From Spirogloea muscicola (taxonomy: Eukaryota), in the NCBI GenBank assembly GCA_009602725.1, contig WELB01000029.1:363737-420341 (forward strand): a DNA stretch of 56,605 nt. The letters are read 5' to 3'. The position numbers and the translations under genes were made by a program. Positions 17,676-44,875 of this stretch are shown here, one piece after another. The notes under the pieces are model-generated. The model worked only from the letters and a program-made list of their open reading frames with translations. It was not told where the DNA came from and searched no databases. Numbering within the stretch: the stretch's first letter is position 1; every line of letters starts with the position of its first letter.

Positions 17676-17712
<37 letters not shown>

Positions 17713-18325
17713 GGGGGGGTGACTCTTCTGCCACATTCGTCGCAGGCCTGCTCATCTGGTAGTGAGGCCATGCAGGGCAGGCTGCTGCTNNNNNNNNNNN
17801 NNNNNNNNNNNNNNNNNNNNNNNNNNNNNNNNNNNNNNNNNNNNNNNNNNNNNNNNNNNNNNNNNNNNNNNNNNNNNNNNNNNNNNNNNNNNNNNNNNNN
17901 NNNNNNNNNNNNNNNNNNNNNNNNNNNNNNNNNNNNNNNNNNNNNNNNNNNNNNNNNNNNNNNNNNNNNNNNNNNNNNNNNNNNNNNNNNNNNNNNNNNN
18001 NNNNNNNNNNNNNNNNNNNNNNNNNNNNNNNNNNNNNNNNNNNNNNNNNNNNNNNNNNNNNNNNNNNNNNTGAGAGGGAGGGAGGGAGGGAGGGAGGGAG
18101 GGAGGGAGGGAGGGAGGGAGGCAGGGGGAGAAGGAAGGTGAGAGAAGCAAAACAGGCGAGACGGGAAGGAGCGGGAGCGTGTGGAGGAGGGTGCGACGAG
18201 GGGAGTCCTGACTGACCCGTCTGCGCCGCCACGCTGCCGGCCAATGCAGCGGCCGCCACGCCGAGCTCCTCCTCCTCCGGCATCGCCCCCACCGCCGCCG
18301 CCGCCGCCGCCGTCGCCGCCGCCAT
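11783..18325 (-). CDS. DUS3: tRNA-dihydrouridine(47) synthase DUS3-like, with two CCCH zinc fingers; about 13 exons
   Basis: Motifs: [19 protein letters not shown] fingers [11 protein letters not shown] and [51 protein letters not shown] (catalytic Cys); [34 protein letters not shown]-terminus [16 protein letters not shown]. The first exon (~18218-18325) is inferred across the N gap. Confidence 0.95.
17674..18125. repeat. Poly-G and (GGGA)n tracts flanking an assembly gap (N 17790-18070) in DUS3 intron 1
   Basis: Directly visible. Confidence 0.95.
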
Positions 18326-18363
18326 CGCCGCCGATGGCGCCGCCGCCGGGGTTGCTTGACGGG

Positions 18364-18372
18364 TTAGGGTTT
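18364..18372 (-). promoter_or_regulatory. Telo-box (AAACCCTAA) about 40 nt upstream of the DUS3 start
   Basis: ttagggttt on the + strand. Further CCCTAA-like motifs occur at 18561-18590. Telo-boxes are known near start sites of plant translation and RNA-modification genes. Confidence 0.5.
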
Positions 18373-20197
18373 CGCACTTTGGGCTCTGCCTCTGCGGGAT
18401 TCTGCGGGGTTCGGGGTTCTAGCAGAGGTAGTCGGGACGGTGTCGGAACGGAACGGGACGCTCCAGTTTAGCGGCCGCCGTCTTGCGCTCCGCCGCCGCC
18501 GCCGCCGCCGCCGCCGCTTGCGCTGGCACGGCGGAGCGCGGCGGCGCTTGCGCGGGCCTCAACCCTAAATCTCAAACCTAAGCCCTAAATCCTGCCCGGA
18601 TCTCACCCGCGGCGGCGCAGCCGACGCGCCGCGTACCTTGGCGTGCGGAGCTGCCGCCGGCGGCGGCAGTTGGGCGGAGCTCGGCGCCTTGTGATGCGCT
18701 GGCAGGAGCAGCGGGCGAATACTCAGCTCGAGGAGGACGAGCAGCTCCGAGCGTTTGTGCAGCTTTCTCACTTATGATGTGTGAAGGGTTTAGGCTCTAC
18801 TGGTCAGGCTGTACTTAAATGGGGGACATGCCACCACCATAGTCAGCCCCCGACTCGACTCAGCGCCGGGCTTGCTTTGGTGATGAGGATGAGTGCCTGT
18901 GTCTTAGGCTCCTGCGGCGCACAAAGGGCGTCTGCATGTTCTTAGTCTTCGTTGTACATCGTCTCACCACGGACGACACCCACCCTCTTTGCAGGCCCAG
19001 GCTAATGGCTTCCGTGGTGGTGGTTTGGCGCCTCAGTATAGCTTGTCAGATATGCATGTGCTCACTCGGGTTTATTAGTGTCCCCCTTAGCCAGCTCATT
19101 ACCCAGTTAACAGGTCATTTGTAAGGCTAGAATTGGCCTCCCTTTCAATTTCATGCGCAGTGCGCGCCTTCTCTCTTTGCAGACAGCCCCAGAACTCCCA
19201 GGCGTGTGGGCGCGGGATGTGCGAGAGCGTGTCCTGGGGCCGAGGCGCGCCTTTGTCGGGGGCTGCCCTTTGGCGGCTTCTCACATAACGCAGGAACAAA
19301 TTTTGCTCTTATTACATCCACTTATCTGTTGGAAAGTCAAGCAATATTCACCTGCGCACTTGTCTAAAATGGTGTCCCTCCACGTTTTCCATGCAATATT
19401 GCGCACCCTCTTGGCTCCAGAGCTCACCACGTATGTGATGTCCTTATTCGGCCGCCTGGGAATGACATACGAGCTAACTCTGAAGCGGTGCAAGTTTTGA
19501 TAGTGGGTGGCCTCTGTCACTGTTGGCTGGAAGTAGTAGTTGGAGGTCGCCGGGTCGATAGTTGCAGTAAGTGCTGGCATGCATCAATAGCCGCTATAAG
19601 TGGTGTGTGCTTGGCACCTCCGCATGCAGGTTGTGGGTTCTCCTCTTGTGCTTGCAGAGTAGCTTCATTTCAGCTCCAGGCCATGCATTTAGTGTGTGCA
19701 TGTTGCTACTATCCTTCACAATGTATCTGAATGCACCACCTTTGTCATCCTTGCATTTTGTCTCGATACCGCAAGATAAGGGCCTCACAAATTGCTTTCC
19801 TTAACGTTAAGGTATCACTTAAAGTGGTCAGCATGTGTATATCATCGTGCTTTGAGTTTCTGGCTTGGGAGCCAAGCACACGGGGTGCTTGGCCATCCAA
19901 GGCAGCAATGGAAGACATGCCAGCGACTGTGAGACACTATTGTAAACGACGCGTCGTTCTCAAGCGGCCTTGCAAGAGGCTCGGCCTGTGGCTGCAAGCT
20001 TGACCATGGACATAACTGATCCCCTAATTAGGCCGCGCGAACAGCCCAACACAAAAACGCGAAAACGCGTCAATCAGGCTATGGAAGAGAGCGGTGAGCA
20101 TGGGTTGGACCGCCGCTGGTCGGACCCCACGAAGTGGCAGTCCAGGCAAGTGGGAGGAGTACATCCGAATGAACCCAAATGAAGTTTAACGAAATCA

Positions 20198-20310
20198 AGC
20201 GCGGCCAGATCAACAGTTGGCTGGGAGAGGCCAGCCCAAAGGAATGGACAAGGTCTGAGGAGCCGGAGCCGGAGCCGGAGCCGGAAACGAAAGCGGCTGC
20301 TGATGTTGAA
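20198..20310 (-). repeat. Solo CRE-like 3' UTR fragment
   Basis: agcgcggccagat..ggctgggagaggccagcccaaaggaatggacaaggtctga.ggagccggag matches copies at 39871-39945 and 45769-45840. Confidence 0.7.
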
Positions 20311-21511
20311 GTTGATGTTGGAGATCCACGAGACCGCCACGTCGGCCCGTCTCCTCGCACCATCCCCGCAGAGTCAGCTCGACTCCGCACGCGTTGACCC
20401 GCTACTCGCTCCCGCCAACGGGTCTAGGAATCCCGGACTTGGACCCAATGCTGACCACTGTGCCCGTTCTTCTGCCGTATCTCCAGCGTGGCAGCTCGGC
20501 GAAGTAATTTCGCCGCCGCCGCCGGGGGGCCCGCGCATCCACACGTGTGATGGATTGGGGGCTGATGCCCCCGAAGCCGCCGGCGGCTTCGCCGTCGTGA
20601 GCCGTGCGATGCGCAGCGGGAATGATAGCGGCCGTCGGATGAGGACGCGGAGTCTTGCGGGCCCGGCGAGCTTGTGGGCTAGCGCTCGTGCCTGGCCGCC
20701 TGCCGACCAGGACCGGTTCAGAGTGACCGGCTCCGGTCCGCTGTGGGCCCTTCCGAGCGGGGCCCTGCACGGGGACCGGCCCGGTCGCGACCGGGGAGGC
20801 GGCCCTTGCCGCGCCGGGCGCCGGCCGCCACGCGCCACGTGGCATGTCGCGACAGTAGCGGCCGCAGATTGCCGGGATCCCCGCCGGCAAGGACGCGCCC
20901 CGGGGATATCTAAGCGAAGAGAGATTAGGGGCAAGGGTGAAAGCTGTTAGGGCTAATTGATGCGCGATTCGTCGCAGGCGGGTTCCTCAAATCTCACCCC
21001 CAAACCGGCCAGCTGGTGGTTGTGAGGGGCCAGCCCAGAGATATTCCAGATTGAGCAAGATTTAAGGGGCCAGAGGAAAAACGCTAACGCCAGCCGGGAT
21101 TAGGCGCTAAAGAGCTCTTAAAGGAGCTCTCTCAGGGCCTAACGGGGCAGCCAAACCGTCCCCGCCCAGCGCCGCCCGGCCAGCCTGGTGGGGCCCCTGC
21201 ACCGCCCCCGCCCCGCGGCCCCGCCGCCGGGCCAGCCCTCCGCAACCCCAGCCTGGGCCCCCCACGGCGCGGGTCAAGCTTCGCAGCAGGTGATGAGCGA
21301 GCAGTCTGCCACTGTGCTTGTCATCGTACTCGCCACTCAGGCCCTCCATTCCATGGCGGCCGCCTGCAGCAGCAGCTCCTCCCCGCAGCTCGCCGCCGCG
21401 CCGCCACCCAGGCCGCGGCGAGGCGCCGTCATGGCGCCCGGCCTCCGCTGAAGCCCGGCCGCGTTCGGCGTCCAGGCTCGAGCTCGAGCTCGACGCCCGC
21501 CACCCCCCGGG

Positions 21512-24500
21512 ATGGCGCCCGCGGCGGCGGCCATGACGGGCCCGAAGGCGCTGCTCTGGGCCGCCGTGCTGCTGAGCTGCTGTGCCGCCGGCGCACTCGC
21601 CGCCTGCGGCGCACCAGGTGGGCGCCCACATCCTGCCGGGCTGTTCGTCCTGAGGTCCCCTTCTGCACTGTGAAGCATGGCCCTGGCCAGGTCCCACTGA
21701 CAGTGCCCTGCCGCCGTGGCCGCAGCGGGCAGCCTCGTGGGGCAGGAGAACTGCCTTCCCGGCGCCGGCGCGAGCTGGCGGCACAGCGTCGACCTCAACA
21801 TCGTCGGCTTCTCTGACGACATCAGCTACGAGCCCGGCAGCGCTGTCAGCTTCAAGGTGGCTCCTGGGCCCCCCCTCCCTCGTGGAAACTCTCTGTCTGC
21901 CTCGTCCTTCCCTTTCCCTTCCCTTCTCGAGCTTCTGTGCAAAACCCATGTTAGCCCCACTGCGAGCTGGTCAGCTCACAGTATCTCCTCTTGCAGCCTC
22001 CTTGCCATTGACGACGCTGTTTGCAATGCAAGCCCGAAGGTCGTCAACTTCGGGCAGCATGCGTGCCCTTTGCTGCTTGTGCTCACTGGCTGTCACCACT
22101 GTTGGGGCTGTGCCTGCTGCCTTCCGGCACTTGTGCAGATCAAGGTGGCCACTGGCAAGACTTTTGCGTCTCTCAGCGTGCTGCGGCTCGGTTGGTACAA
22201 CGGCGACGGAGCGCGCGTGGTGACTACGGCACCTGTGACGGCCACCGGCACCGCCACGCAGCCGGCGTGCGCTTACAACTCAACCACGGGCCTGGAGGAC
22301 TGCGGCAACTGGGCCACGACTGCAACGTGGACAATTCCAGCCAACGCTGTCTCTGGTTCGTCATCTTTACATACTCTCCCCTCCCTCCAAAGGCTTCCCT
22401 CTTAGCTCTGGGCTTGTTGCACAGGCCTCCACAGTCCCGCATCCGAGCTTCATTTCTAACACCATCATGTGCTGGTAGTTTTGTTCGTGACACTGGAGCA
22501 CGAGGCAACAAACTATACTTAGTGGAAAGTGGCTACAGTTCTTACTCTTGGTCTCTACGCTTGCCGTTGTGGTCCTCACCAACTCGTTAAATCGCCACTT
22601 CCTCACTCCTCAGGTGTTTACTCACGTCCTCGTCATCTTTGCAGGTCTGTATTTGGCACAGCTGCAAACAACAGGCAACCTGTACAACTATGTTCCCTTC
22701 ATCGTTCGACAGCGTGCATCAGACACTGCTCCATCGGCCATCCTCTTCCAGACTTCTGACACAACCTGGCAGGTCCAGCTTCCTTAGCCGTCACCTATGC
22801 AAGATTTTTCCACGTTTCCCCTTCTCAACTCATGGTAGTGGCTGCTACCACAGAGAGGCCATTGCCATTAGCGGGGCTCCGGCAGAGGGTGCATGGGTGA
22901 TGAGCAGAAAGGTTGTATTCTCGTCCACGCCTTCATGTTTGCATAGCTGTCCTATTTGAGGAAGTATGGTCACCACCTGCATCCCTGGTCTGTAAGTAGC
23001 ACCTGAAGACTGTCAAGACCGTGGTGCAACTTGGCTGCGTCTGTTGAGCTGCCTCCTGTGCGTTTGCAGGCGTACAACTTTTACGGGGACATGGGCAACA
23101 GCTTGTATCGTGGCAAGGGCCCTGGCAATGGGGCCTCGTCCGGCAGAGCATACAAGGTTTGGCCATGACAATAAAACTTTGCCTTCATGGTCTCAAGTCC
23201 TTTTTGCATAGACAAGCCCAGGGCCTGTGAGCAAGCAGAGTCTGCTCGGTGACACTCACATCGAAATTTAACCCTGAATTGTCTTGCCATACTTATGTGC
23301 AGGTCAGCTATAACCGGCCGTTCATCACACAGACCGGGGACTCAGTGAGCAACTCTGTCACAGGGCCGCAGGACTTCCTCTTCAATGCTGAGTACCCCAT
23401 GATCCGGTGGCTTGAGCGCAATGGGTACGACGTTTCCTACTTCTCTGGCGTCGACAGTGATCGCTATGGCTCGCAGATCCAGGTATTTCCATTCTTGCTG
23501 GATAAGCATGTAGGCAGCTATGAGCGAGCTGCTTCAAGGTCAAGGGGCCAGCATTGCACAAAATTCAAGTACTTGTAGATATGCTACATGATGCACAAGT
23601 CATGTAGCACTACACCGATGGTGGCACTTTGACTTCACTCTAGATTGCATTTTTACTGGAATACATCCTTTCATGTGACTTTCGGTGCACGTTGATGCAG
23701 CTTCACAAGGTATTCATATCGGTCGGCCATGATGAGTATTGGTCTGGCGGCCAGCGGCGAGCTGTTGAGGCAGCCAGGAACACGGGCGTTCACCTGGCAT
23801 TTTTCTCGTGAGAGTTCCTCCGCTGCAGGCCATCAACTGGCATGCATAAGAAAAGTGACTACAAAATCTGACTTTCACCACGTCAACGTGCCTTCAACAG
23901 GGGCAATACTGTCTTCTGGAAGACGAGGTGGGAGGCTGACCTGAACAACAAGGCCTACCGCACGCTCGTCTGCTACAAGGAGACGCATGAAAACGCAAAG
24001 ATTGATCCCCTTCCAACCGTCTGGACAGGTTGCCTCTGCTCCTGACGTAGCAGATAGCTCTGGTTTTCTCATGCTTGCATGCAACACGTCCAAGTGCAAG
24101 CATGTCTGAGCAAGCCCCTACTCCGCCACTGCTCATTTGCATTGCTGTGTAGCACTCTGCTTATGTCATTACTGTATAGTGCATGTTGCTGCTGTGTCAA
24201 AGTGCACGCCTCTGCAAAACGTACATGGTTCCTGTACCAGCCAGGCGACTTGAAACAGCCAGGTTTGCCGTAGAGCGATTATGGACTACAGCGAGGACTG
24301 ACAGCCTCTTTCTCTATCAGGGACCTGGAGAGACAATCGTCCTTTTGTGCCCTCTGGTCCTGATGGAGGTAACCAGCCAGAAAATACTCTCACAGGACTC
24401 ATTTTCCTTGTGACTGGTGGTACCGTGGATTTGCAGGTGAGAGGGCTGTATAGGCTAGTGTACAATAGAATGCTTATTGATAGAGAAGCCTGCTCTATCG

Positions 24501-27500
24501 TGCTTAGGCTCACACCGTGTCCACAATATGCATGCTGACTGTGCACATGATTTTGTCTCACACAGTGTATCGTACATTAGACATGCAAGCACTCTGTGCT
24601 TCACAGCATGTCTAGGAGGAGAATTACAATAAAGGATTTCTTGTGTGATTTATTGGAGACTGTTGTGCTTGTGGTGCAGGTACCTGTCAGCGCCAGCCGA
24701 TTGCGGTTGTGGAGGAACACCGCGGTGGCCTCGGAGACGAGCACAACCACCCTGGTCCCAGGCACAGTTGGTTACGAGTGGGACGTCGACACTGACAACG
24801 GCCTTCGTCCTGCTGGTCTGCACGAGAAGGGCCTTTGACCTCTATTAACTTTCACATTTAGTACATTTGAGTGCTGAATTTACAGAGATCCATTGTCAAC
24901 CTTCACCCGTTTTGCTGCAAGTTCAGCAGGGTGCCATGACTTGTCCAACACTGGTAGCTAACGAAATTGTCAATATCTGGCAGGGCTCATTCTGCTGTCC
25001 AAGACAGATGCGCAAGGAGTATCTGTGCTGGTGGACCAGGGTTCGAACTACGTTGACGGGCCTGCCACGCACACGATAAGCCTTTACAAGTGGGGCTCTC
25101 TACCAGCTATGCTTATGTGCTTATGCATGTAAACTGTCCACAAAGTGGATCACATTAACATGTTTTTGCAGAGTGCTCTGCAAAGCCCCTGCTGACAATC
25201 AGAGGTGGCCTGGCTTTGGAGGCAGACACGCCAGTGGAGCCCTGGTGTTTGCATCTGGCACTGTCCAATGGGCATGGGGCTTGGATGGAACCCACGACCG
25301 TCCCGAGAACTCGCCAACTGCTGTTGACCTCCAACCAATGCAGCAGGCCACAGTCAACCTCTTTGCTGATATGGCGGTCTTCCCTGCCACCATCCAGGTT
25401 TCCCAGCCTTGTCATGTGACAGCATGTTTTTGTTGCCCACTCTGTGAGCCTTACCCATAAAATTAGATGCTAAAATGTAAAGATCCAGAAGTAGATTCAC
25501 AACATCAGCACACACGACTTTTCCTAGTATTACATTTAACTGGACAGTGACAACCTTGACACCTCATCTGCGTGCGGCGCAGAGCAACCTGGTGTCCAGC
25601 ACCGCTTCGACGGACACACTGGCGCCAACAGCCAGCGTTGACTCTTACCCGCATTCGGGGTCCTCCTTGGCACAAGGAGCCTCTGTTACAATCAGTGGGA
25701 GCGCGACTGATCCGGGCTCGGAGGCGAGCGCCACCCAGATTGGCTCCGTCGAGGTCTCCACTGATGGTGGCGCTACCTGGCACCCCAGCACCACTCTAGT
25801 GCGCAGCTCAACAAGGTGCACAATTGCCGCCAGGCGTGATGATCCTTTAGTCAGCCCTCCTTGACTCTTCTGAGCGTTGCGCTTGAGATGCCATGCACAA
25901 TGTGGGGTCCGGAGAGCAATACAACCCTTGCCGGCTGCTTTAGCTGATTGCTGTGGCCAAGTGTAACCCACCTAATAAGTCATTGTTTGTGGCGTGCACC
26001 TGCAGTGCTACCTGGACATACAGCTTCACAGTCTCCAGCAGCAACTCCTCCCTCAGCCTCAGCCTTACGGCACGCGCCACGGATGACAGCCTCAATACAG
26101 GGGACGCTTCTGCGAGCATATTGGTCGTGTACCAGATGTCAGGGCAGCCAGCTGTAGGTGGTCCTGGCTCGCCAAGCCACTGCCCTTGCAGGATCTTTGG
26201 GGACAGCTTCCCAGCACCCGACCTTGTTGACGTGTCTGATGGGGTGAGCCACCGCGACAAGTAATTTGGGCATCTCACAACCTATAGTTGTACGACCTAC
26301 AATTAGACAACCTGCACGTAGATTCTGTCTAATTCAGTGAGGTCTTTCTGAGAACATAGGTGGGGCGAAGCTGACAACCAACGATGTTGTAGAGGAACTG
26401 ATGTGGACTAGACATTGTCGCTTGCTGCCCTCTAACAAGGGCAAATGTGTTAACAGCATCCTATCACCGTCGGCAACAAGGTGTACTTCCAATCAGATGG
26501 CTATGTCACTGGCATGCGTCACTATGCCAGTGTCAGCAGCTACTCCTACACGGCCCGCATCTACCAGGAGAATTGCACTCTCCTTGGGCAGGTCAGTCAT
26601 TCTGCCCGAGTTGAAGGGGCTAACCACGTGCATGTATGTAAGACCGGCTGATTTGTATGTTAAGGACGTGGAGACTCCCTATATGAGCTTGGGTGTTGAC
26701 CTGAAAGTGACATAGCACAGATGTTTGTTGATCTCTGCTGGAATGACCTTCACCTCTAGTTGTCTTGATGACGCTTGGCTGCCACTTGCAGGCTGCTTTC
26801 CCCGTCGTTTCCACCGCAGGCTGGCAGAATGTTTACTTTCCTTCCCCTGTACAAGTCACTGCAGCTACTACATATGTGGCAGCAGGTCGATAATCAATGC
26901 TCCAGACAGTCCTGTGCATGTAGCAAAGAACAACTATTACATTGTTTGGAACAATCTTGGCTCTACTTTTCAATACTCATCATGTGTGTGCTCTGAGCTT
27001 GTGCTCGCACTCGGTGATTGCAGTGTACTCACCGGATGGTAGATACAGTGACACAAATGGCTTCTTCGGAAGCATCACCAGTTACTCCGACTCGCAAGTG
27101 GCATTTGGTCAAGGAAATACCGCCGCCAGCCCCAACAATGTCTATATCTATGACAACGCATGCCCCAATGGTCCAGGCAGCTCGACTTATCAATCAGCCA
27201 ACTACTACATTGATGTCATCTTTGATTACGTCCCCGGCAGTTCAGATCCTCCAGCTGTAAGATCTTATGATGCACAGTATCTCCCATCTTTGCTGCTTAC
27301 ACCAATCAAGCTGGCAGCTCAATTTGCAGCTGCATGCAGGCTTACATGCTATCACATGTGCAAGTCTTACTCATGCAATGAGGTGACAACCTGCAGGTGC
27401 TTAGTATTAGTCCGGCAGATCAGGCCACAAGCGTGCGTACAAGCATAAGTTCAGTCATTGCTGCGTTCACCGAAAGCCTGGACCCTGCGACTGTGTCATC

Positions 27501-30500
27501 AAGCACCGTGACACTGATGGATGGTGCCAGCCCAGTTCCTGTAAGTGTCTCTCCTGTCTCACGATTTTCCCATGCTGTAATTAGAGGGCTCGCTGTGCTG
27601 TCATTCAGGTGAGCTAGCCTTGTGTGCATATTATGGCTACCACTCACAATTCGAGTAAAGCCTTCCAGTTACTCATTATGGCTTAATTGGCCCTGGCAGG
27701 GAATTGTCAGCTACGATTCCTCGCAGCTCGCAGTTGTCTACACACTGTCCAACAGCCTCGACGGGTCAACCAACTATGTGCTGACGATCAAGGGCGGGAC
27801 AGGTGGGGTGAAGAACACTTTGGGGACACCGCTTTCTTCAGATTTTACCTCAAGCTTCACCACCGGTGCTGCACCCATCACGCTGCCAGATCCCAACAGC
27901 GATAACGGCCCAGGTATGCTTTGTGTTATGGGGATATTGCTCCAAGCTAGAGTGTGGAGTCAGACTCGTGTCCGCTGCAGATCAGAAGTATGTGGAACCT
28001 TGGGTCATCAAGAGCAAGTCAACTTGCTATTGACCAGTGAAGGGCACCGGGACCTGGGGCCGTCGTTACAAAGGGTCCTCTAATTCAATCAACTAGCTTG
28101 CAGGGGGCCCAATCTTGGTAATTGTCAGTACCACCAATAAGTTCTGCCGGTACTTTGGCGAGATCTTGCGCGCCGAGGGCTTCAACTTGTTCACAATCAA
28201 GGACATTTCGGCCGTGACCAGCGCGGACCTCACGGCTGCTGATGTGGCCATTCTTGGAGACATACAGGCCGTGACGGCTGCACAGGCAAGCAAGCACAAG
28301 CAAAGTGTCTGTGATATAGTCGCGCCAACAGGGCGTGGCAACTTGCAAGAAACATGCTCGTGCAGATGTCGTATAATGGGGACCCAAGTAGCATTCGATC
28401 AGACTGGCCTGCAGATTCCTCGGCTCTGCAACACAATGTCTCACATGCATCTGCGTTGGGCACCTTGGGCAGGTCTCGTCGTTGTCCAACTGGGTGGCTG
28501 GTGGCGGGCGACTGATAGTCAGCAGGCCAAGCACGCTCTTTGCCTCCCTCCTCGGGCTCACCAGTGTCTCGGGCATCATCAGTGAAGGCTATTTCCTTGT
28601 CGACACTACTGTGGCACCTGGCAAAGGTACACATATGTCAGCACTTAGGCATCTCAGGAAAGGTATGCAAGGATTGTTTAGACATCCACAATTTCTGCTG
28701 CTAGAAAGACATGTACATCAATATCAACGTCCATATTTGTCCCGTACTTGCAGGCCTGACATCTGAGTCGATGCAGTACCACGGGACCAGCGACCAGTGG
28801 CAGGTCGATGCTGCAGCTTCTCCAGCTACCAGGAGGGTGGCCAGCCTCTCGGCGACGGCAACAGCGAGCACCGGGCTGGTGGCCGTCAGCTTGCGGACAG
28901 TGGGCGTTGCAGGCGGCCAGGTGGCTGCATTCACGTTTGACATTGCACGTTCCGTGGTGTACACAAGGCAGGGCAACCCAGCGTGGGCAGGCCAGGAGCG
29001 CGACATGATCAGCCCCAAGCGTTCAGATGACCTGTTCGCCCCCCAGCCCTGGCATCTGCAATGCTATCAACCACTGGAAATTATGGACCATTCAAGTGCA
29101 ATAGTAGACCCTTGAATATTACGTGTGGATCCACCTTCAGAGCTAGTCTTGAAAGTGGTGCCAAGATGCAAGACATGCCCTCCCCAAGGGCTGCATTAAT
29201 GACAGGAGTTCGTGTAATCATGACACAATCTGACAAGAGAGGTCTACGTTGCTGTATAGCAGATCAGGCACTGTTACTGCTCTCTGAGTCGTGTACATGC
29301 CCATGCAGATTCTACGGCGTGGTCGGCCAAGAGTGGGTGAACCGCGACAAGGTGCATATCCCTCAGGCAGATGAGCTGATGCGGCTACTGTCCAACGTCA
29401 TCCGTGCCCTGACCTTTGACATCAAGCCCCTCCCCAAGCTCTGGTACTTCCCCAACTACTACAAGGTGGTCGTCATCCTGACGGGCGACGAGCACGGGGA
29501 CGGCAATGTCGCTAGTCGCTTTGACAACCTGATGGTGACGCTCTATTTCATCTGGCCAACTCAGAAGTAGACCCACTCCATCAGGCGAATCTTAGATCCC
29601 ACATCACAGATCCTTACCATATATAGACACAGTTGTATTTATCCTAGTGCTAATACTTAAGTAGACCCCACATTGCGTCCTGCTATCTTCCCTGGCAATA
29701 TCTTGACATATCGACAGCAAGCTCCTTGTAGTAGCCTGACCTCATTCAACTCAAGCTCGTGCTGTTGTGGGCATTGCCACCTTGCTAGGCTGCCGATCCA
29801 CCGAGCTGCAACCTTACAAGGTGGGAGTGCATCAGGGGTTCCTCGTACTTCTACCTGGGTGGCTCCTTCAGCAACACGCAGGCCCAGGTCCACTGACTCC
29901 TGCCCATGTCTTGTGCCAATGCATAATGGTTGTTGCTTTATCAAGTCAGACGCTAGCTTACCTACGTCAGTCTCAATTGCTTAACTTCTTGTGGGCCTGG
30001 ACTTGCAGCACTATCAATCTCTTGGTTTTGAAATGGGAGTGCATGTGAACACCGGCTGCGCCGACTGGACACCAGCAACTTTGGACCAATTCTACGTTGA
30101 CCAGCTAGGCTCATTTGGTGAAAAGTACACGTCAGTGCCACCGCAAACGACGCACCGCACGCACTGCATTGCGTGGAGCGACTGGGCGACGCAGCCTAAG
30201 GTGGAGCTCAGCCACGGTGGGCCGTACTGAACCACCTTCACCTGGACACAGGCCTCTTTCACATTGTTTTCTGGCACGCAGAATGCTTAGAAACAGCAAC
30301 AATCATCACTGTGTACCTTATCTGCAGGCATTCGGCTGGACACGAACTACTACTATTACCCTCCTTTCAACACGCAGGGCCAGCCTGGCTGGATCTCCGG
30401 CACGTATGTCGGCCACATGTCTGGCTCTGCCCTTCCCATGAGGTGCGTCCACTTAAGCTGACAGCATTGACACCGAGCAGTAGCAAGTGGAGGAGCCACC

Positions 30501-33500
30501 TTACCCACGTCGTTTGACTGTATGTGCTGCTGACACGTTCTTTGAGGAGTTTGACAGTTACTCCTGGCAGTTACTTAACGCCCATGTTTCATCACACAGA
30601 TTTGCAGACCTTGACGGGCAAATAATTGACGTTTTCCAAGTGATGACTGAGATGACGGATGAGTCAGGCCAGACATACCCGAGCTTTGTGAACACGCTCC
30701 TGGACGCAGCTCTCGGCGCGCCACAGTACTACGCCGCTCTGACAGTCAACGCTCACTCCGACTCGGAGCCCAATCCTGTGACCCAGGCGATCGTTGCGGT
30801 GACCATCTTGCTGCCTAGAAGAACCCTGTGACATAGTCGCAGGGCACATATTGCATGCTTGAGATGGATGGGCTTATGCAATATGCAGGTCACAAGAAAA
30901 CCACAATCTGATGGTTGACAGTTGGTCGCTTTGTGCAGTCAAGCAAGTCGAGGAACACGCCAGTCGTCAGTGCTACTCAGATGCTCCAGTGGATCGATAA
31001 GCGGAACAAGGTGTCATTCAGCAACATTGTCATGTCGCCGGCTAGGGACTCACTGACGTTCACCGTCGCCACCTCGGGCAGCTTCCCCTGGGGCGTTACA
31101 TCAACCCTGCCTACCATCATCAACTCGGGTATGTGCTCTTCACAAGTCAATCAAGGGGCTCTGATGCCATGACCCTGGGTTTCACCACATCCAGCTGGAG
31201 TTGGCGGTACAGTAGCATGAGCATCATTCAGCCTCTGAAGATAAACAACAAAATGAGCGTCACCCAGCAGTATGCAGTTGATTTCAGCTGCAAGCTACAT
31301 TGCAGCTACATGGACTTGGTTATATCTCACAAACTTGATCCATGTCAGGAGTGCTGCTGGGCATCACTGGACCAGGCGGCGCTGTCTCGTACAAGACCGA
31401 CACAATAAAGGGTGAGTGTGGCAGCCAGCCTCGGTAGCCTGCCCCTGTGTGACATGTCGCACTGCAGCAAATATGTTGGGCTAAAGAATTTCTTGAATGT
31501 GCGAGTGTTTTTCTCGGGCTTCATCCATGTGCAGGCATCCAGCACGCGGTCTTCGCAGTCATTCCGGGCGATTACACTGCCACATACAGCAATGCGCCGC
31601 TGCCGCAGTCGCCTCCGCCGCCCCCACCTGTGGCTCCAGCCCCTGCGCCCGCTTCCTCACCTTCTGCACCAACGATCTACGACAGCACTGCTGCAGACTT
31701 CGCAGCAGCTACTACACTGTCGGCTGCCTGCTACATATCCCAGGAATCTGATGGCGAGGTCATTCTGGCCCCCACACTTGGTGAGCTTATCAGTTGCCTT
31801 GGTCAGTCTGCAATTGTCACTCAGGCATCTGGTTGTGACGTTAAGCAAGGTAGGCCTCAAAGGGCTGTGCACCAAGCGAGTGCTGCAGAGATGGTCATCA
31901 ACCTGACATCCTCCAAAACCGAGTGTGGCAGCGACGGAGTTTCCGTCGCCACTGGGGCCCGACTTTCAGGCAGATGTTTGGGACGGCACGGGATCACTGA
32001 CGTACGCACCAACGGGCAAGTTGACGCTGAGCCGAGCATACGTACGGGCAGCGGCATACACGGCCGCCCCCACAGGCGATCAGGTCGTCGCGCTCGAGTT
32101 CTCCGCCAACTTCTCGGCCGACGCTACTGCCTCCCAGAACCAGCACGTGGGCTTTGGCACAGACCTTAACGGCTGCCCCTGGGCCCTTATAAGCACGACC
32201 AGGGGCTCATCAGGCCAGCTATATGCGCGAACATGCGGCCCGTCGAACTCCGACGAGGTCATCGGTCTCGGCGATAGCTCCCTCGGCTCCTTCCACACGT
32301 TCCGTATCGAGGTGGGCGGCGCTTGGCTCCTCACTCCCACTCAATGTATCCTCTGTTGACCTGTTCGCTAGGCAAAGAAGCAGCACCGAAGCAGACAATG
32401 ACCCGTGTTTCCTACATTTGGTTGGCAGTGGCGGGCAACCGGGTTCACGTACCTGCTCGACGGTGTTATGGTGGCCATGTCAACCGTAACGATTGGTAGT
32501 CAGATGAGGCCGATTGGCAGCGCATACTCAAGCAACCCAACGACGCTGACACTGGACTGGCTGCACCTCAGCCCCTACAGCTCCGCAGCGTGCCAGTTCT
32601 CATCGCAGCCGCTGGCAGCTCCCGGGGCTGCGGCGGTTATGTGGCAGTCTCTGACACTGGACGAAGATGTGCCGGCGAGTACTTCTATTGGGGGAGTGGC
32701 ATGGAGCTATGGTAGTGTCCTGCCACCAGACACGTCCTGGACGACTGTGGCGCTGCCGACCCAGGCGAGTGCCACATGGGTGCTGAGCCCTGGGAGTGCG
32801 TCGATGTACATGATATACTCATTTGCGCTGGCATCAACCGATGGGCAGCACACCCCGGCAGTGCGGCAGGCTGCCGTCACTTATGGGACAGGTCAGCCGC
32901 AGTTGTTTGAGCATCAATATCTGAGTTTCCTGATTTGCATCAACTACTCTGTAGACTGCAGCGGCTCAGGCCTTGTGCTGACTGTGCAACTCTTTCTGCA
33001 GCGTCCTCACTGTCGCCGCCGCAGCCGGTGTCTCCTCCGCCACCTCCCACGCCACCTTCACCAAAGACGTCATCTCCAGTACTGCCGCCGCCTTCATCAC
33101 CGCCCCCAGTTGCACCAACGCAGCCCCCAATGACAAACTCTAACCTCACAGACACGAACACCACAGACTTTGCCGCCGGCTCGGCGACCGGCTGCTACAT
33201 TGCTCAGCGCAGGGACGGTGAAGTGATTGTGGCGCCAACACTTGGTTAGCATTCTCTTCCCTGCAAAGCTTCTTAAGGTCTTTGCAAGCTGGGCTTTAAT
33301 TATCCTGGTGCAAATCTTTGGGCACACTACGAATCTTACATCTGCGCTTTGCCTTCTGCCTGTTATCCAGCGACTGAATTCTCGGCACCAGTGGGCTCTG
33401 ACTTCGAGGCAAACACCTGGGACAGCCAGGGTGCATTGACGTATGACACGACGGCGGGCACTTTGACGTTGAGCCGAGCGTATGTGCGGGCGGCAGCATT

Positions 33501-34961
33501 CACCATGGCCCCCACTGGCAGCCAGGTCATTGCACTCGAGTTCTCGGCAAAGTATGCAGCTGACGCGGCTGCATCGCAGAACCAGCATGTTGGATTTGGC
33601 ACCGACCTCAATGCCTGCCCGTGGGCTATTATTAGCACAACCCGAGGCTCATCAGGTCAGCTGTATGCACGGACATGCGATGGAACAAACAGCGAGGAGG
33701 TCATTGGCCTCAGTGACAACTCCCTTGGTGCCTTCCACACGTTCCGGATTGAGGTGAGTGGCTCTTGTTGGCCCCACGTGCTTCTTCCAGTGTGGCCTCC
33801 AATTTCTGTGTGTGTGCTCTTGTGGCGCATTATGTGTCATTAGTGAAGGTGGACCGCACGAGGCAGAAAGAGCATGACGTGTAACCTCTGTCATTGGCTT
33901 GCAGTGGCGAGCGACTGGATTCACATATCTGCTCGACAACGTTGTGGTGGCAACGTCAAGCGTGACAATCAGCGCCCAGATGAGGCCAATCGGCAGCGCG
34001 CTCTCAAGCAACCAGCCAATCCAGCTGACGCTGGACTGGCTGCACCTGCTACCATACGGCCCCACCTCGCCCTCTTGCACGTTCACATCACGAGCGCTCG
34101 CTGCGCCAGGCAGCACACCGGCTCTGTGGACCTCGCTCAGTCTGGAGGAGGACGTGCCGGCAGGCACGTCTGTCACATCGGTGAGCTGGAGCTATGGGGA
34201 CGTCCTGCCGCCAGATGCGTCCTGGACGACGACGGCTCTGCCAGCCAACGGTGGCCCCGTTTACACACTTGCTGCCAGCCGCCCGACCAAGTACATGGCC
34301 TACTCGTTCGTTCTCTTTCCGTCAGCTGATGGGCAGCGCACGGCAGCCATTGGCGCAGTCGCTGTCTCATACCAGCCAGGTAAGCTTCACCATCACCATT
34401 TGTGCAAAATGCTTTACTCTGAAATGGTTGTCTGCACTGTGAGCCGGCTGCCACAGCCCTTACCCCCTTGGCCATTTGGCCTTCGTTTGTATCAAACACT
34501 TCAAATTTTCCAGTGGGAGATCCACTTTCTTCATTCTATTGTCTTTCTTTTTCTCCGGATATAAATCCCATTATCTGTTTGCCGCAGCGCCGCCGCCGCC
34601 GCCATCACCGCCGCCGCCGCCGCCGCCGCGGCCCTGGCTGCGCAGGCTTCCCGCGAGGCCCTTCCTGGCGGCTCACGGTCTCCTCACGGTCTCGTCGTCT
34701 GCCAGTCCACTGCCTGCGACATGGTCGTCCGTTAGCTAATGTGCCGCCGATGGCTGCGGCCGCTGCGTGGTGTCGCAGGGCGTCGGCGGAGGCCATGTCC
34801 CGGCGCTGCGGCGACCGCTTCCCTNGCGCCCGCCGCCGCCGCCGCCGCGCCCGCCGCCGTCGCCACGGCCTCCACCACCACCTCGCCCACCACCATCACC
34901 TCACCCACCGGCACCGCCTCGGCCACCCCCGCCAACTCGACCTCCACCTCCCCCACGCTAA
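21512..34961 (+). CDS. Large secreted multidomain protein: signal peptide; N,N-dimethylformamidase-beta-like (DUF6605-type) domain; Ig-like; DUF4082; Big_5-like Ig; GATase-like plus deacetylase-like region; two tandem lectin/ConA-like modules; SPn/Pro-rich linkers and tail. About 36 exons
   Basis: Spliced translation: MAPAAAAMTGPKALLWAAVLLSCCAAGALAA (signal); [206 protein letters not shown] tail. Family names come from motif recognition, not a search. Confidence 0.85.
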
Positions 34962-37033
34962 CTTGCCATTATCCAGCGACCTCCACTAATGTGCTCCTCA
35001 AGTCACGCTCTGACCAGGCACTGCAGACGAGGGCTGCTAGTAAGCCATCAGGAGATGAAGGATTCACTGAATAGACTACACACACTTCAGCTTTTCATAC
35101 TCTTCAGTCTTCTGCTTTTATTCACATGCAACGCATGGCAGAGTTAAGAGCTTCGTGAGCTGCAGAGCAACCCCGGTATCCTGACTACCCATTTGTCACT
35201 TGTGAGCACTAAGCAGCTCTGAATCTTCACACATTTAATCCTGTAGTACTACCGCCCATTAGCTCTTTATGCATATGAATCAGAATCAAGATGGAACAGA
35301 ATAACTCCAGCATGTGCTGCAGCCAGAGCAGGGCCGATCAGAGGTGCAGCTCGTCCAAAGGAGGTGAGGGCTGTAATAAGCCAATTCACATGAAAATGGA
35401 CATGGTTGAAAAGCTGGAAAGCGCAAAGAGCACTGAGCTTACTGTGCAGCAACTAAACCTTCTGCAGCTACCTGCTTTGGGAGAGAGCGTCTTGTCCCCA
35501 TCCCCAAGTAGAGGTAAAGAAAGAAAAGCGCAGCCCAATTGACTGGTGGCTGTGAAAGGCCAGCCCAAAGGAATGGACAAGGTCTGAAGGAGCCGGATGG
35601 TGCAGAAAGCAAGGTACTAATGACTAAGACGGCAGCAAGGGGACTCTCAGTAACCTCTAGTCAGTGGATGCAAATCGGAATAACTAGCAGGCGGATTGAC
35701 GTTGCCCTGACGGAAGCTGGAGGCCACGGCCAAAGAGTGGCCCGCGCGCAAGTGGACCGCGAAGACAAGGGACCGCTGCAAGGAGATGGCCAAGCGCATC
35801 CAGAAGACTTGGGCAAGGGACCCGGCGACATTGAAGCTCGCACTGCTGCCCGTGGCGCGGGCCACTGCACTCCGCGCAAGGGGGTGAATAAGGTCAAGCC
35901 ATTCTGTCTCAAAAGCTCCGTGTACGTCGACGGCGAGTGGGACGAACTCCTCCCCCTTTGGGTGATACGGACCAGCTCTATCAAAGGAGGCGAGTAAAAA
36001 CTTCTCAGCAGCCGCAGCTTGGACAAAGTAGCAGCTAGAAAGAAAGAAACCGCGTGGTGCCCACGAAATGAACCGAGGAAGACGCCTCCAGGAGAAGGCG
36101 ATGGCTGAGAGTGGCCAGCCCAGACAATGGGGATAGTCCATTCTTTTCTGGGCTGGCTTTGCTAGCCCCTCTTTTTCTATGGGCGAGCCCTTCCCCCAGG
36201 GATTGGGGGGGGGGGGAAGGAGGGCCGGCAGAGCCCCTGGGGGCCTTTCCGGCAGCTAGTTTGTCGGATTTGAGGCTCCTCACTCGTAAATACTGAGTGG
36301 TCCATCCTCCCCCATTCTGACATAGCATTTTCAGGCCCCTTCGTAGCTGCTTAGCGCTTTTTCGGCCCTTCCGTCAATTGGCCCCTTCGAACCTTTGTCA
36401 ATTCTTTTCGGGCTGGCTTTTCACAGCCCTTGCCCCCATTGGGAGTGCCAATTCTTTCCTGCTGAGTGGTCCATCCTCCCCCGTTCTGACATAGCATCTT
36501 CAGGCCCCTTCGTAGCGAGCACTTTCTTCGTGGCTGCTTAGCACTTTTTAGGCCCCTCCGTCATTTGGCCCCAACGAAACTTTGTCAATTTCTTTTTCGG
36601 GCTGGCTCACAGCCCTTGCCCCCATTGGGAGTGCCACCTCTTCTTTCCTGCGTCTTCTAGGCAACCCGACGAGACCCAGAAAAAGAAAGCGTGGCCCAAG
36701 AAAGAAGAAGAAGGGCTCGCCCATTGAGGATAGGAGCTGGGAAATGCCAGCCCAAAAGAGAATAAAGAAATGACGAGAAGGGGCCAAGGAAACTAAGAAT
36801 CAATAAAAAAGCACGTCCGGAAGCAGCAGCCATGGCACGGCCTGCCCGCAAGTGTACTGCGTGAGCTGGGGACCGGAGGAAGATTGGGAGCAAGCGCGGC
36901 CAGATTAACTGGTGGCTGGGAGAGGCCAGCAAGAGATTGTGGGTAGCAAAGTAAAACAGCACTTCCGAATTGACAGCAGTGGCTGTGAGAGGCCAGCCCA
37001 AAAGGAATGGACAACTGGACAAAGGACACAAAG

Positions 37034-38091
37034 AAGAAGTGGCTCTCCCAATGGGGGCAAGGGCTGTGAGAAGCCAGCCCGAAAAGAATTGACAAGGTTC
37101 GAAGGGGCCAAACTACGAGCTAAGCAGCGACTGCGGGGCCTGAAGAGGCTATGGCAGAACGGGGGAGGATGGACCACTTAGTAGTTACGAGTGAGGAGCC
37201 TCACATCCGACAGACTAGCTGCCGGTAAACTATCCCCCTGACGAAAGCCGGAGGCCGCAGCGAGAGCACGGCCAGCACGCAGATGCAAGGCGTGGGCCAT
37301 GGACCGCTGGAGGGAGACGGACAAGCGCATACGATACACCTGAGCCCAAGAGCCAGCGGCGTTGAAGTCAGCCGGCTCACCGCGCCTGCGGGACACAGCG
37401 CGCCGTGCAAGCCTGGCCAACAGGTCGAGCCAGTGGGATCCGAGAGCCCCATGCACGTCCACAGCCAGGGGGACGAACTCGTCGGCAGCCGGGTGGTCGG
37501 CGTGTTTGGCCGCCTTGCTGCGAGCGGCCTTTGCCGCAGCGTGGCCAGCCCGCGAGGCAGAAAGCCCCGGGTTGGAGCGGTCGACCACATCAGTGGTGAC
37601 CACATCGGCAATGATGCGCCCGCCACCGCCCGTCGTGGACGCCACCAAGTCGACGCGGCGCGTGTGGAGTCCGTCGGCCCTCTGGAGGATGGGCATGACA
37701 GAAGTATTCTCCATCGCAACTGTGTATCCGGCCTCCTGAAGGATGCCGAACATACCGTCGCGGAGGAGGTCGTGAGCGGCTGTGCGCTCGCCGCCAGTGG
37801 CGCAGCGAAGGATATGTGCCGCTAGCTCCGCGGGGTCCGTCGACCGCTCCCCACACTCACACTGCAGCACGCCAAGCAGACGGCGGGGGAAGACCCAACA
37901 GGCGATGGGTGGCCGTACGGAAGAGTTCGTCCGGCATCCTGAGGGCGTCGTACAGGGGGAGCGCGGACAGCCAGGCTGCCGCGCCAGGGGAGGCGGCCGA
38001 CAGCAGCCGAGCATGGCCTCGCACGTCTGTGGGAGGGAGGAGCTGCAGCGTGGCCGTGAAGGAGGCCTTGTCAACTGCCGCCATGTACCGC
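37034..38091 (-). mobile_element. Longest CRE-like copy (5'-truncated): end of RT-thumb/linker, CCHC knuckle, restriction-like endonuclease; 10-bp TSD
   Basis: AAAWLSALP..FRTATHRLLGLP [frameshift near 37885] CECG..HILRC..AHDLLRD..RRVDLV..IIADVVTT..SKAAKH..FVPLAVDVHGALG..RLSVSLQRSMA matches the typical CRE-clade C-terminus. TSD GGACACAAAG at 37024-37033 and 38092-38101. Confidence 0.88.
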
Positions 38092-38152
38092 GGACACAAA
38101 GGGTTTGAATAGCCGGATACGGGATAACGAAAGGAGCTAATGCCTATATTCT

Positions 38153-38720: not shown

Positions 38721-38801
38721 CTATATTCTTTCGCCCATAGAGAAAGAGGGGCTAGCAAAGCCAGCCCAGGAAAGAATGGACACACGGAACACCTGGGCAA
38801 G

Positions 38802-40075: not shown

Positions 40076-42595
<2,520 letters not shown>

Positions 42596-44572: not shown

Positions 44573-44875
44573 TGCAGGCGCACACTGCACCACCATCCGC
44601 CACAGTTCCGCACAGTCTTGTCACAGGTGAACCAGGGTAAGCCCAATAAGTCGTGGGCGCTTTGACAAGAAGAGGGAGGGCTGAAGAGGAAGTTGGGGAG
44701 GAGAGAGACGCACATGATGGGGTGGGGGGGGGTGGAGCACATGATACAGGCAGATGTGCATAACTATAATAGGACGGAGGAAGGAGCAGAGGGAGGGGAG
44801 ATGGAGAATGGAGAAGAAGGCGTGGAGGAGGAGAGAGGCGGAGGAGAGGCGGAGGTTGTGAGGAAGGCAGGGGGG

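What the first reader, a model, noticed from the sequence alone, without database searches (positions are those of the whole stretch)
21512..34961. Bacterial-type DMFase-beta/DUF4082 surface protein in a plant-lineage genome, fully intronised: candidate horizontal transfer
Seen: the spliced protein runs collinearly through motifs (QTSDTTWQAYN, KVSYNRPF, NAEYPMIRWLERNGYDV, VGHDEYWS, GYEWD, GTVQWAWGLD, TRQGNPAWAGQERD, HRTHCIAWSDW). It has about 35 spliceosomal introns and a eukaryotic-style signal peptide, and it sits among plant genes, which argues against contamination. Knowledge: I recognise these motifs from large secreted DUF4082/N,N-dimethylformamidase-beta-like proteins of soil Actinobacteria and Proteobacteria, and I do not recognise the family from land plants. 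Inference: an old bacteria-to-alga transfer of a protein of unknown function, probably carbohydrate-binding or carbohydrate-modifying.
Basis: partly seen in the sequence, partly recalled or inferred. Interest (0 to 1): 0.88.

Follow-up and report, generated by a model that had tools for sequence, protein, structure and literature searches.

The report
Bacterial double-amidase gene in an alga
A green alga from the group closest to land plants carries a gene with 35 introns whose 2,300-residue protein matches giant bacterial surface proteins domain for domain; it was likely taken from a bacterium and likely works outside the cell, clipping acyl groups off amino-sugar polymers.

Summary
Confirmed and refined. 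The + strand holds 36 exons and 35 introns (34 GT-AG, 1 GC-AG) that splice into one 2,320-aa frame. It is 100% identical over 394 aa to a EukProt Spirogloea muscicola protein, and two sister copies are about 90% identical. One alignment covers residues 17-1559 at 47% identity to a metagenomic homologue of the same domain order. A published Pfam table shows DUF4082 in Spirogloea only, of 16 green genomes. Horizontal transfer from bacteria is likely; the donor is unresolved. The protein is more than a surface lectin: it has two predicted amide-hydrolysing modules. One keeps all six essential residues of the dimethylformamidase iron site. The other is predicted to fold like the Agd3/PelA polysaccharide de-N-acetylases, with a variant metal motif. 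Three introns sit at the same positions in both C-terminal repeats, so that duplication followed intron gain. Transcripts and activity are untested; the C-terminus is uncertain. Verdict: new, lineage-limited member of a known kind.

The parts
21512..34739 (+). Whole gene model, 36 exons / 35 introns, 2,320 aa. Exons: 21512-21617, 21726-21856, 22139-22355, 22645-22772, 23070-23156, 23303-23482, 23701-23807, 23901-24028, 24321-24436, 24680-24815, 24984-25089, 25226-25397, 25583-25815, 26006-26243, 26457-26591, 26792-26885, 27024-27256, 27397-27540, 27700-27913, 28104-28285, 28473-28626, 28754-29033, 29309-29534, 29789-29887, 30009-30216, 30328-30442, 30600-30798, 30939-31128, 31349-31411, 31535-31780, 31932-32311, 32429-32891, 33002-33244, 33371-33753, 33905-34379, 34588-34739
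21512..21601 (+). Predicted signal peptide (aa 1-30); alternative start ATG at 21533
   Evidence: hydropathy; public models start at the second ATG
21737..25603 (+). Module A (aa 40-545): DMFA2_C / dimethylformamidase-fold predicted iron amidohydrolase. Y196 (23073), Y207 (23106), H293 (23728), E295 (23734), N321 (23905), E433 (24776) align to DmfA2 Y399, Y440, H519, E521, N547, E657
25604..26138 (+). Ig-like domain (Big_7-like, aa 546-660)
   Evidence: E 2.4e-4, under the cut-off on one exon
26172..27235 (+). DUF4082 domain (aa 672-842)
   Evidence: three exons at profile positions 14-57, 61-88, 91-143
27248..27882 (+). Big_5 Ig-like domain (aa 847-958)
27904..31593 (+). Module B (aa 966-1560): predicted glutamine-amidotransferase-like alpha/beta domain + NodB-like barrel + beta-sandwich, as in Agd3/PelA/NDST1. 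Conserved D1234 (29487), H1236 (29493), H1294 (30042), R1332 (30156), H1334 (30162), H1442 (30754)
   Evidence: fold predicted on homologue P0046, 49% identical
28286..28472 (+). The one GC-AG intron
   Evidence: junction gap-free in 399 of 406 homologues
31594..31668 (+). Ser-Pro-rich linker 1 (extensin-like SPn motif; label from my own knowledge)
31669..32890 (+). C-terminal repeat 1 (aa 1586-1903), likely non-catalytic ConA/GH16-like beta-sandwich module
33002..33138 (+). Ser-Pro-rich linker 2
33139..34378 (+). C-terminal repeat 2 (aa 1950-2270), 65% identical to repeat 1, with three introns at the same positions
34588..34961 (+). Last exon, Pro-rich tail. End uncertain: stop at 34737-34739 if read straight, or at 34959-34961 if 34631-34825 is mis-assembled
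   Evidence: single N at 34825

Best explanation
This is an intron-rich algal gene whose protein matches a family of giant bacterial proteins domain for domain; it was likely acquired horizontally from a bacterium, is predicted to be secreted, and likely removes N-acyl groups from amino-sugar polymers at the cell surface. History: a bacterial gene of order A-Big7-DUF4082-Big5-B-C likely entered the Spirogloea lineage whole (inferred). It gained introns, and then the C module was duplicated (order inferred from three shared intron positions). It was then kept in three copies (shown). Mechanism, inferred from conserved residues and predicted folds: module A would bind Fe(III) by Tyr196, Tyr207 and Glu295 and hydrolyse an amide with Glu433 as base and Asn321 stabilising the oxyanion, as proposed for dimethylformamidase. 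Module B would use a divalent metal in a NodB-like barrel to de-N-acetylate a glycan, with Asp1234 as base, Arg1332 activating it and His1442 as acid; the candidate metal ligands are His1236, His1294 and His1334. DUF4082, the Ig domains and the two C repeats would act as spacers and sugar binders, and the Ser-Pro linkers would tie it into wall or mucilage. The most likely substrates are N-acetylated polymers in or around the mucilage, of microbial or algal origin. Odds: transfer from a free-living bacterium about 0.9; both modules active about 0.7; glycan de-N-acylation as the job about 0.55.
For: Gene. Transfer: one HSP of 47% over aa 17-1559 with P0438; 30 of 585 proteins with domain hits begin with the same six-domain order and 8 have the exact seven-domain order. 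Named carriers of the six-domain order include Rubrobacteraceae, Solirubrobacterales and Dyadobacter. In three searches (top 120 of 877, of 1,960, of 1,139) the only eukaryote-labelled hits were Spirogloea: 1, 2 and 0 rows. No other fetched homologue shares more than 12 of 148 (A) or 17 of 178 (B) alga-rare residues, against 69-140 for the sister copies. DUF4082 counts 3 in Spirogloea and 0 in 15 other green genomes (PMC11096116 supplement). Constraint: barrel 251/256 and 250/256 identical between copies, against 21/28 and 38/48 in the linkers. Module A: the six residues align with DmfA2 and are kept in 224-228 of 228 homologues. The model of homologue P0248 matches DMFase and N-acetyl-(R)-beta-phenylalanine acylase at Z 30.7-32.2, rmsd 2.7-3.0 A, 405-419 aligned. 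Module B: model of homologue P0046 (pLDDT 91.7); Foldseek best hits Agd3 6NWZ (E 7e-13), PelA 9CGY, with NDST1 at ranks 4-5; listed residues kept in 401-405 of 406 homologues. Atlas look-alikes of a homologue's module B include a Polysacc_deac_1 cluster at 0.94. 20 of 79 bacterial loci have nucleotide-sugar or polysaccharide-export genes in the flanks.
Against: No activity is known for this subfamily. The two characterised relatives of module A act on small amides, not glycans (PMC7686228; PDB titles). Module B lacks the HxxxH metal motif of CE4/CE18, and the algal copies have Glu at the second acidic position, where 351 of 406 homologues have Asp. Its metal ligands are a guess: I had no access to model coordinates. 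Whole-module similarity to Agd3 is loose (TM 0.40; Z 17.6, rmsd 9.8 A). Both folds were predicted on homologues, not on the algal protein. 59 of 79 bacterial loci showed none of the six sugar-gene types tested, and no random-window control was run. The algal branch is long (0.6-0.76) and moves between trees; AU tests reject neither a cyanobacterial sister nor a basal position. Most hits have no taxon label and only the top 120-150 were seen, so divergent eukaryotic relatives may be hidden. The passage I saw on charophyte mucilage describes anionic fucose/galactose/glucuronic polymers, not amino sugars (PMC10762512).
Confidence: 0.55

Rival explanations
1. Same horizontal origin, but the real substrates are small N-acyl compounds (N-acetyl or N-formyl amino acids, amides, acyl signals). 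The protein would scavenge nitrogen or quench bacterial signals at the cell surface.
For: The only characterised relatives of module A are dimethylformamidase and N-acetyl-(R)-beta-phenylalanine acylase. The NodB-like barrel also occurs in enzymes of other kinds (e.g. ArnD).
Against: Module B's best whole-module matches are polymer de-N-acetylases. The protein carries several likely sugar-binding domains. Sugar-polymer genes recur beside bacterial homologues in several phyla. DMFase needs a small subunit for activity and restricts substrate size through its interface (PMC7686228); no such partner was seen.
Confidence: 0.2
2. Same horizontal origin, but the algal protein is a non-catalytic wall or mucilage scaffold, adhesin or metal-binding protein; the conserved sites bind but do not turn over.
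For: Large, repeat-rich, Ser/Thr/Pro-rich protein. Module B has no canonical HxxxH and an Asp-to-Glu change. One passage links DUF4082 to predicted amyloidogenic QN-rich regions (PMC5922492).
Against: All six essential residues of module A are kept after a stem of about 0.75 changes per site. The barrel is the most conserved part among the three copies.
Confidence: 0.15
3. The gene came with the plastid from cyanobacteria, or is an ancient eukaryotic gene, and was lost in nearly all other lineages.
For: Cyanobacteria have homologues. AU tests do not reject alga + cyanobacteria (p 0.58 module B; 0.70 module A) nor a basal position (p 0.89). One quick concatenated tree put the alga in a group with cyanobacteria and proteobacteria.
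Against: It needs losses in all 15 other genomes of the table. In the careful concatenated tree the cyanobacterial clade excludes the alga at 100/99. In the 6 cyanobacterial loci, B starts its protein, no C repeat was detected, and A is a separate ORF in the two loci that hold it; two loci are cut by contig ends. Identity to bacteria is still 50-58% per module.
Confidence: 0.07
4. Contamination or assembly artefact.
For: The window has several N joins and a suspect stretch at 34631-34825.
Against: 35 spliceosomal-type introns in one frame. No N between 18071 and 34824. Three diverged copies on three scaffolds. Intron positions shared between the internal repeats. Eukaryote-type neighbours.
Confidence: 0.02

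Closest known systems
N,N-dimethylformamidase large subunit (Paracoccus, PDB 6LVB) and N-acetyl-(R)-beta-phenylalanine acylase (PDB 8HUY/8I5A); Pfam PF20254
   Same: Same fold (Z 30.7-32.2 for a homologue's model). All six residues shown or proposed to be essential in PMC7686228 are aligned.
   Different: About 20% identity. No pentraxin insertion (domain II), no small subunit seen. Predicted secreted and fused to six further domains. Substrate unknown.
Agd3 (CE18 + CBM87, Aspergillus fumigatus), PelA deacetylase, NDST1 N-deacetylase
   Same: Predicted three-part module: alpha/beta domain, NodB-like barrel, beta domain. Motif order Asp base, His, Arg, catalytic His matches the order described in PMC7229062.
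   Different: 12-13% identity. No HxxxH; motif 1 is D-E-H (D-D-H in most bacteria) and motif 3 is R-x-H. About 60 residues between the first two motifs, against over 120 in Agd3.
Uncharacterised bacterial giant DUF4082 / DMFA2_C surface proteins
   Same: Same domain order, 41-47% identity over about 1,550 aa in one alignment for all 8 proteins of identical order.
   Different: Algal gene has 35 introns, Ser-Pro linkers and its own duplication of the C module (65% between repeats, at most 40% to bacterial repeats).
Bacteria-to-Zygnematophyceae transfers (GRAS, PYL, cell-wall degrading enzymes)
   Same: Same kind of event in the same algal class (passages of PMC12448838 and PMC11096116).
   Different: [quoted passage not shown] This one is seen in Spirogloea only, of 16 genomes, and brought a seven-domain protein.

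Membership tests
PF20254 DMFA2_C | Score over Pfam's cut-off (27 bits), collinear with the profile | tested here: met
   exons 3, 4, 6, 7 each pass alone (47.4, 27.8, 37.4, 48.8 bits); positions 2-370 in order
Dimethylformamidase (enzyme) | 2-Tyr-1-carboxylate iron ligands plus His, Asn and catalytic Glu | tested here: met
   Y196, Y207, E295, H293, N321, E433 (sequence alignment, not metal binding)
Dimethylformamidase (enzyme) | Pentraxin domain II inserted in the large subunit | tested here: not met
   Profile matches DmfA2 residues 5-29 and then 337 onward; module A is about 500 aa against 762
Dimethylformamidase (enzyme) | Small subunit partner; hydrolysis of DMF | not testable with these tools
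   No genome held; no assay
CE18 (Agd3) | Three-domain architecture with NodB-like barrel | tested here: met
   on homologue P0046; loose overall fit (rmsd 9.8 A over 463)
CE18 (Agd3) | CM2 HxxxH metal motif | tested here: not met
   one conserved His (H1294); four residues on is Gly
CE18 (Agd3) | CM1 Asp-Asp, CM3 Arg, CM4 His | tested here: inconclusive
   D1234, R1332, H1442 conserved; second acid is Glu in the alga; equivalence inferred from motif order only
CE4 / NodB (PF01522) | Pfam hit and motifs MT1-5 with HxxxH | tested here: not met
   No PF01522 hit on P0002, P0121, P0095, P0101, P0001; no HxxxH. Barrel-level likeness remains (Z 17.4 to 3QBU)
GH16 (C-terminal repeats) | Catalytic ExDxxE motif | tested here: not met
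   motif absent; Pfam PF00722 hit covers only 36-38 of 175 positions
DUF4082 (PF13313) | Score over cut-off, full profile covered | tested here: met
   exon 16 alone 30.1 bits (cut-off 28.4); exons 15-17 cover positions 14-143
Horizontally acquired gene | Integrated in host genome (introns, host neighbours, host paralogues) | tested here: met
Horizontally acquired gene | Patchy eukaryotic distribution | tested here: met
   limited to top hits and annotated proteomes
Horizontally acquired gene | Supported nesting beside a named bacterial donor clade | tested here: inconclusive
   AU tests 75, 96
Horizontally acquired gene | Spliced transcripts | not testable with these tools

The most novel reading that the evidence does not exclude
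[quoted passage not shown] This would be a eukaryotic enzyme with the 2-Tyr-1-carboxylate iron site, fused to a deacetylase of a new carbohydrate-esterase family, and it would point to N-acyl glycans as the natural substrate behind the dimethylformamidase fold.
Probability: 0.2. Interest if true: 0.78.

Novelty: new member of a known kind. Interest (0 to 1): 0.5.

Why it matters
Bacterial genes in Zygnematophyceae are an established theme, so the event type does not surprise. Three things set this case apart. A seven-domain, 2,300-residue architecture arrived whole and was kept in three constrained copies. Its history can be ordered from the sequence (transfer, intron gain, internal duplication, three copies). 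Both predicted active sites look intact. The family is large in bacteria and appears uncharacterised: DUF4082 occurs in 2 papers of the library, once each. The natural role of the dimethylformamidase fold is described as open in PMC7686228. An alga that kept this site gives a testable handle on that question and on how subaerial algae manage their surface microbes. Public annotation splits the gene into fragments, so it is easy to miss. Because it is not seen in other Zygnematophyceae or land plants, it says little about the origin of land plants.

Tried and rejected
Whole-genome search: no genome held, so synteny of the three copies and dN/dS were not computed. RNA: no RNA holder was listed; this is no evidence either way. 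PDB sequence search with P0095 gave only Ig-like hits, and the module B profile gave nothing significant. NCBIfam gave no family over cut-off for the algal fragments. Atlas: the algal fragment was not searched; homologues gave bacterial clusters for both modules and no named family for the C repeat. Metagenome scan with six algal peptide patterns: 28 pattern matches, 1 distant relative at 25%. Viral contigs: 111 pattern matches, none a relative, so no sign of a viral vector there. Donor: eight trees gave different neighbours (P0041; P0465 with cyanobacteria and proteobacteria; P0429; P0163; unresolved). In the careful concatenated tree the commonest bootstrap attachments were 379 and 358 trees, and neither careful bootstrap had settled. 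In the three finished AU tests the constrained tree scored higher than the free quick tree, so the quick searches were incomplete; the careful AU run did not finish. Trees used chosen subsets (104, 50, 36, 53, 34, 55 rows), one-matrix models, and hits picked for closeness to the query or to P0046. GH16 glycosidase reading of the C repeats rejected (no catalytic motif). Intron sequence likeness between repeats: 1 of 3 pairs above shuffles (0/200; the others 46/200 and 182/200). A Pfam scan of 78 of 118 chosen flanking ORFs added a few glycosyltransferases (L007, L017, L019, L051) and one formyltransferase, but no conserved operon. Literature: 'DUF4082 + horizontal gene transfer + algae' 0 papers; 'DUF4082' 2; 'DUF6605/PF20254/DMFA2/PF13313' 4, none on algae by title; none of the 25 rows listed for 'dimethylformamidase/algae/horizontal gene transfer' held the first term. 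Cheng et al. 2019 and Ma et al. 2022 are not held; their supplements may already list these genes as transfers.
Full report
1. The observation. I read 20500-36500 and built the gene by hand from GT-AG boundaries. The result is 36 exons and 35 introns that give one frame of 2,320 aa with no internal stop. Introns are 93-297 nt (median 159); 34 begin GT and one GC; 34 end CAG and one TAG. Exons are 60% GC and introns 49%. Single exons hit Pfam DMFA2_C, DUF4082 and Big_5 at successive profile positions. At 19 of the 21 junctions inside the two large modules, most homologues span the junction without an indel. The one hydrophobic stretch is aa 14-32. The start may be the second ATG. The end is uncertain because of a single N at 34825: a straight read stops at 34739, while a Pro-rich tail in the same frame ends at 34961.

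2. Host. A EukProt protein labelled Spirogloea muscicola (P0243) is identical to the model over 394 aa. Two more copies on other scaffolds are 89-92% identical (P0002/P0124 and P0121/P0123). Three copies fit the genome triplication I recall for this alga; no call confirmed that. The public models are fragments but largely use my junctions. There is no N from 18071 to 34824. Neighbours are intron-split DUS3-like, 2-hydroxyacid dehydrogenase, isopropylmalate dehydrogenase and malate dehydrogenase genes. Contamination is very unlikely. Between copies the barrel of module B is 251/256 and 250/256 identical, the repeats 90-93%, and the linkers 75-79%, as expected under constraint on the enzyme-like part.

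3. Anatomy and relatives. The order is signal peptide, module A (aa 40-545), Big_7-like, DUF4082, Big_5, module B (966-1560), Ser-Pro linker, repeat C1, linker, repeat C2, Pro-rich tail. Every domain has bacterial or metagenomic homologues. 30 of 585 proteins with domain hits begin with A-Big7-DUF4082-Big5-B-C, and 8 have exactly the algal order. These 8 align in one stretch of about 1,550 aa at 41-47%; they carry no taxon label. Named genomes with the six-domain order include Rubrobacteraceae, Solirubrobacterales, an Actinomycetes bin and Dyadobacter.

4. Distribution in eukaryotes. Three searches listed the top 120 of 877, of 1,960 and of 1,139 hits; the last scored only 7,986 candidates of 2,079-5,000 aa. 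Eukaryote-labelled rows were 1, 2 and 0, all Spirogloea. The representative search (top 150 of 2,908, no names) showed nothing else above 53% identity, but it hides relatives inside 50% clusters. As most hits have no taxon, I counted residues rare outside the alga: sister copies share 69-140, and any other homologue at most 12 of 148 (A) or 17 of 178 (B). A published Pfam table gives DUF4082 = 3 and Big_5 = 2 in Spirogloea and 0 in the other 15 genomes: 2 chlorophytes, 4 other streptophyte algae, 6 Zygnematophyceae and 3 land plants (PMC11096116, supplement file 5, which was cut when stored). That rests on annotated proteomes. I saw no sign that the paper singles this gene out (passages).

5. 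Phylogeny. The algal copies form a 100% clade on a stem of 0.6-0.76 changes per site. Their place among bacteria changes between trees. Rooted on DmfA2, module A falls inside the DUF4082-associated subfamily (SH-aLRT 99; sister P0163, 92). But AU tests reject neither a basal position (p 0.89) nor a cyanobacterial sister (p 0.70 and 0.58), and the quick searches were incomplete. In the careful concatenated tree the cyanobacterial clade excludes the alga at 100/99, with an unsettled bootstrap. The six cyanobacterial loci have another domain order and no detected C repeat. What does hold: the algal module A is far closer to this bacterial subfamily (49-64% over aligned columns) than to other bacterial members of the family (26-35%). 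So the origin is bacterial by architecture, similarity and distribution; the donor is unknown; plastid origin is unlikely but not rejected by a test.

6. Order of events. C1 and C2 are 65% identical to each other and at most 40% to bacterial repeats. They have introns at three equivalent positions with equal phase (introns 30/33, 31/34, 32/35). So the duplication very likely happened in the alga after at least those introns were gained, and before the three copies split.

7. Module A. A profile of 35 homologues finds N-acetyl-(R)-beta-phenylalanine acylase (E 4e-10) and, weakly, dimethylformamidase in the PDB. An AlphaFold2 model of homologue P0248 (55% identical; pLDDT 88) matches both at Z 30.7-32.2, rmsd 2.7-3.0 A, over 405-419 residues. 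PMC7686228 (whole text read) names Y399, Y440 and E521 as Fe(III) ligands and shows that Y440A, E521A, H519A, N547A and E657A are inactive. In the Paracoccus aminophilus DmfA2 sequence these six positions align with Y196, Y207, E295, H293, N321 and E433 of the model, which are kept in 224-228 of 228 homologues. The residue match is shown; iron binding and catalysis are inferred. It is not a dimethylformamidase by membership: the pentraxin domain is missing and no small subunit is known.

8. Module B. No Pfam or PDB sequence hit. The model of homologue P0046 (49% identical; pLDDT 91.7) has an alpha/beta domain, a barrel and a beta-sandwich. Foldseek ranks Agd3 first, PelA second and NDST1 fourth and fifth. 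VIA-align gives Z 17.6 to Agd3 over 463 residues at rmsd 9.8 A, Z 17.4 to the deacetylase barrel 3QBU, and Z 17-20 to amidotransferase-like domains of glycosidases. Conserved polar residues are D1234, H1236, E1290, H1294, R1332, H1334, D1410, E1411, N1440, H1442 and D1444 (398-405 of 406). Their order matches the Asp, His, Arg, His motifs described for Agd3 and PelA (passages), but HxxxH is absent and the alga has Glu at 1235. It works like CE4/CE18 by fold and motif order, and is a member of neither by motif.

9. Other domains and bacterial context. The C repeats give a partial GH16 Pfam hit but lack the catalytic motif; I read them as likely sugar-binding sandwiches. 20 of 79 bacterial loci, in at least five phyla, have within 8 kb a DegT aminotransferase, Gfo/Idh/MocA oxidoreductase, sugar transferase, epimerase, polysaccharide-export or hexapeptide gene; 59 have none, and no control was run. 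This is modest support for an amino-sugar polymer substrate.

10. Mechanism and rivals. Best reading (0.55): a secreted, wall- or mucilage-tethered two-headed de-N-acylase of bacterial origin. Rivals: small-amide hydrolase (0.2), non-catalytic scaffold (0.15), plastid or ancient origin with losses (0.07), artefact (0.02). Shown: gene structure, copies, domain order, residue conservation, absence from the 15 annotated genomes. Inferred: transfer, secretion, metal binding, activity, substrate.

11. Novelty. Transfers from bacteria into Zygnematophyceae are known (passages of PMC12448838 and PMC11096116). I found no paper on this gene or on the family's function in the searches listed under Tried and rejected, but the two main transfer surveys are not held and may list it. 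Other papers seen as passages only: PMC10762512, PMC9915684, PMC4257694, PMC5922492. Verdict: real, new member of a known kind, interest 0.5.

Noticed in passing
window 34631-34825: A stretch between two GCC-repeat runs, ending at a single N, interrupts the Pro-rich tail. It may be a mis-join; on the minus strand it reads like the start of another gene. Similar single Ns sit at 2088, 11199, 40627 and 53102.
   Followed up: partly
window 11700-18300, minus strand: Intron-rich DUS3-like tRNA dihydrouridine synthase (Dus and zf-CCCH_DUS3L hits), head to head with the gene; a 281-N gap lies inside it.
   Followed up: partly
window 36900-39600: Two or more similar degraded repeat copies with coding-like stretches (37860-38276 and 38950-39570, minus). 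They resemble non-LTR retrotransposon remnants (recalled); no Pfam hit.
   Followed up: partly
window 40240-40627: About 380-nt (CT)n microsatellite just before a 2-hydroxyacid dehydrogenase gene.
   Followed up: no
window 50170-53210 and 55000-56560, minus strand: Isopropylmalate dehydrogenase with an N-terminal extension, and a malate dehydrogenase whose N-terminus has a PTS2-like motif (label recalled).
   Followed up: partly
window 408-760 and 43900-44600: 3' end of a fructosamine-kinase-family gene; a rhodanese-like gene on the minus strand (weak hit).
   Followed up: no
EukProt entries P0002, P0121, P0123, P0124, P0243: The public annotation breaks each copy into fragments (N-terminal 302-426 aa, C-terminal 1,187-1,201 aa); both C-terminal models stop at the end of exon 35.
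   Followed up: yes
L016, L028, L030, L032, L044, L056, L063: In Pseudomonadota the gene often sits beside a sugar transferase, a Gfo/Idh/MocA oxidoreductase and a DegT aminotransferase, a set typical of amino-sugar nucleotide pathways.
   Followed up: partly
G004 (L081, L086-L090): One Acidobacteriota genome has six DMFA2_C proteins, in frames of 1,020-3,781 aa; the five checked keep all six residues.
   Followed up: no
L069:11575-12546: A formyltransferase next to one bacterial homologue, a hint that N-formyl sugars could be a substrate for module A (one locus only).
   Followed up: no
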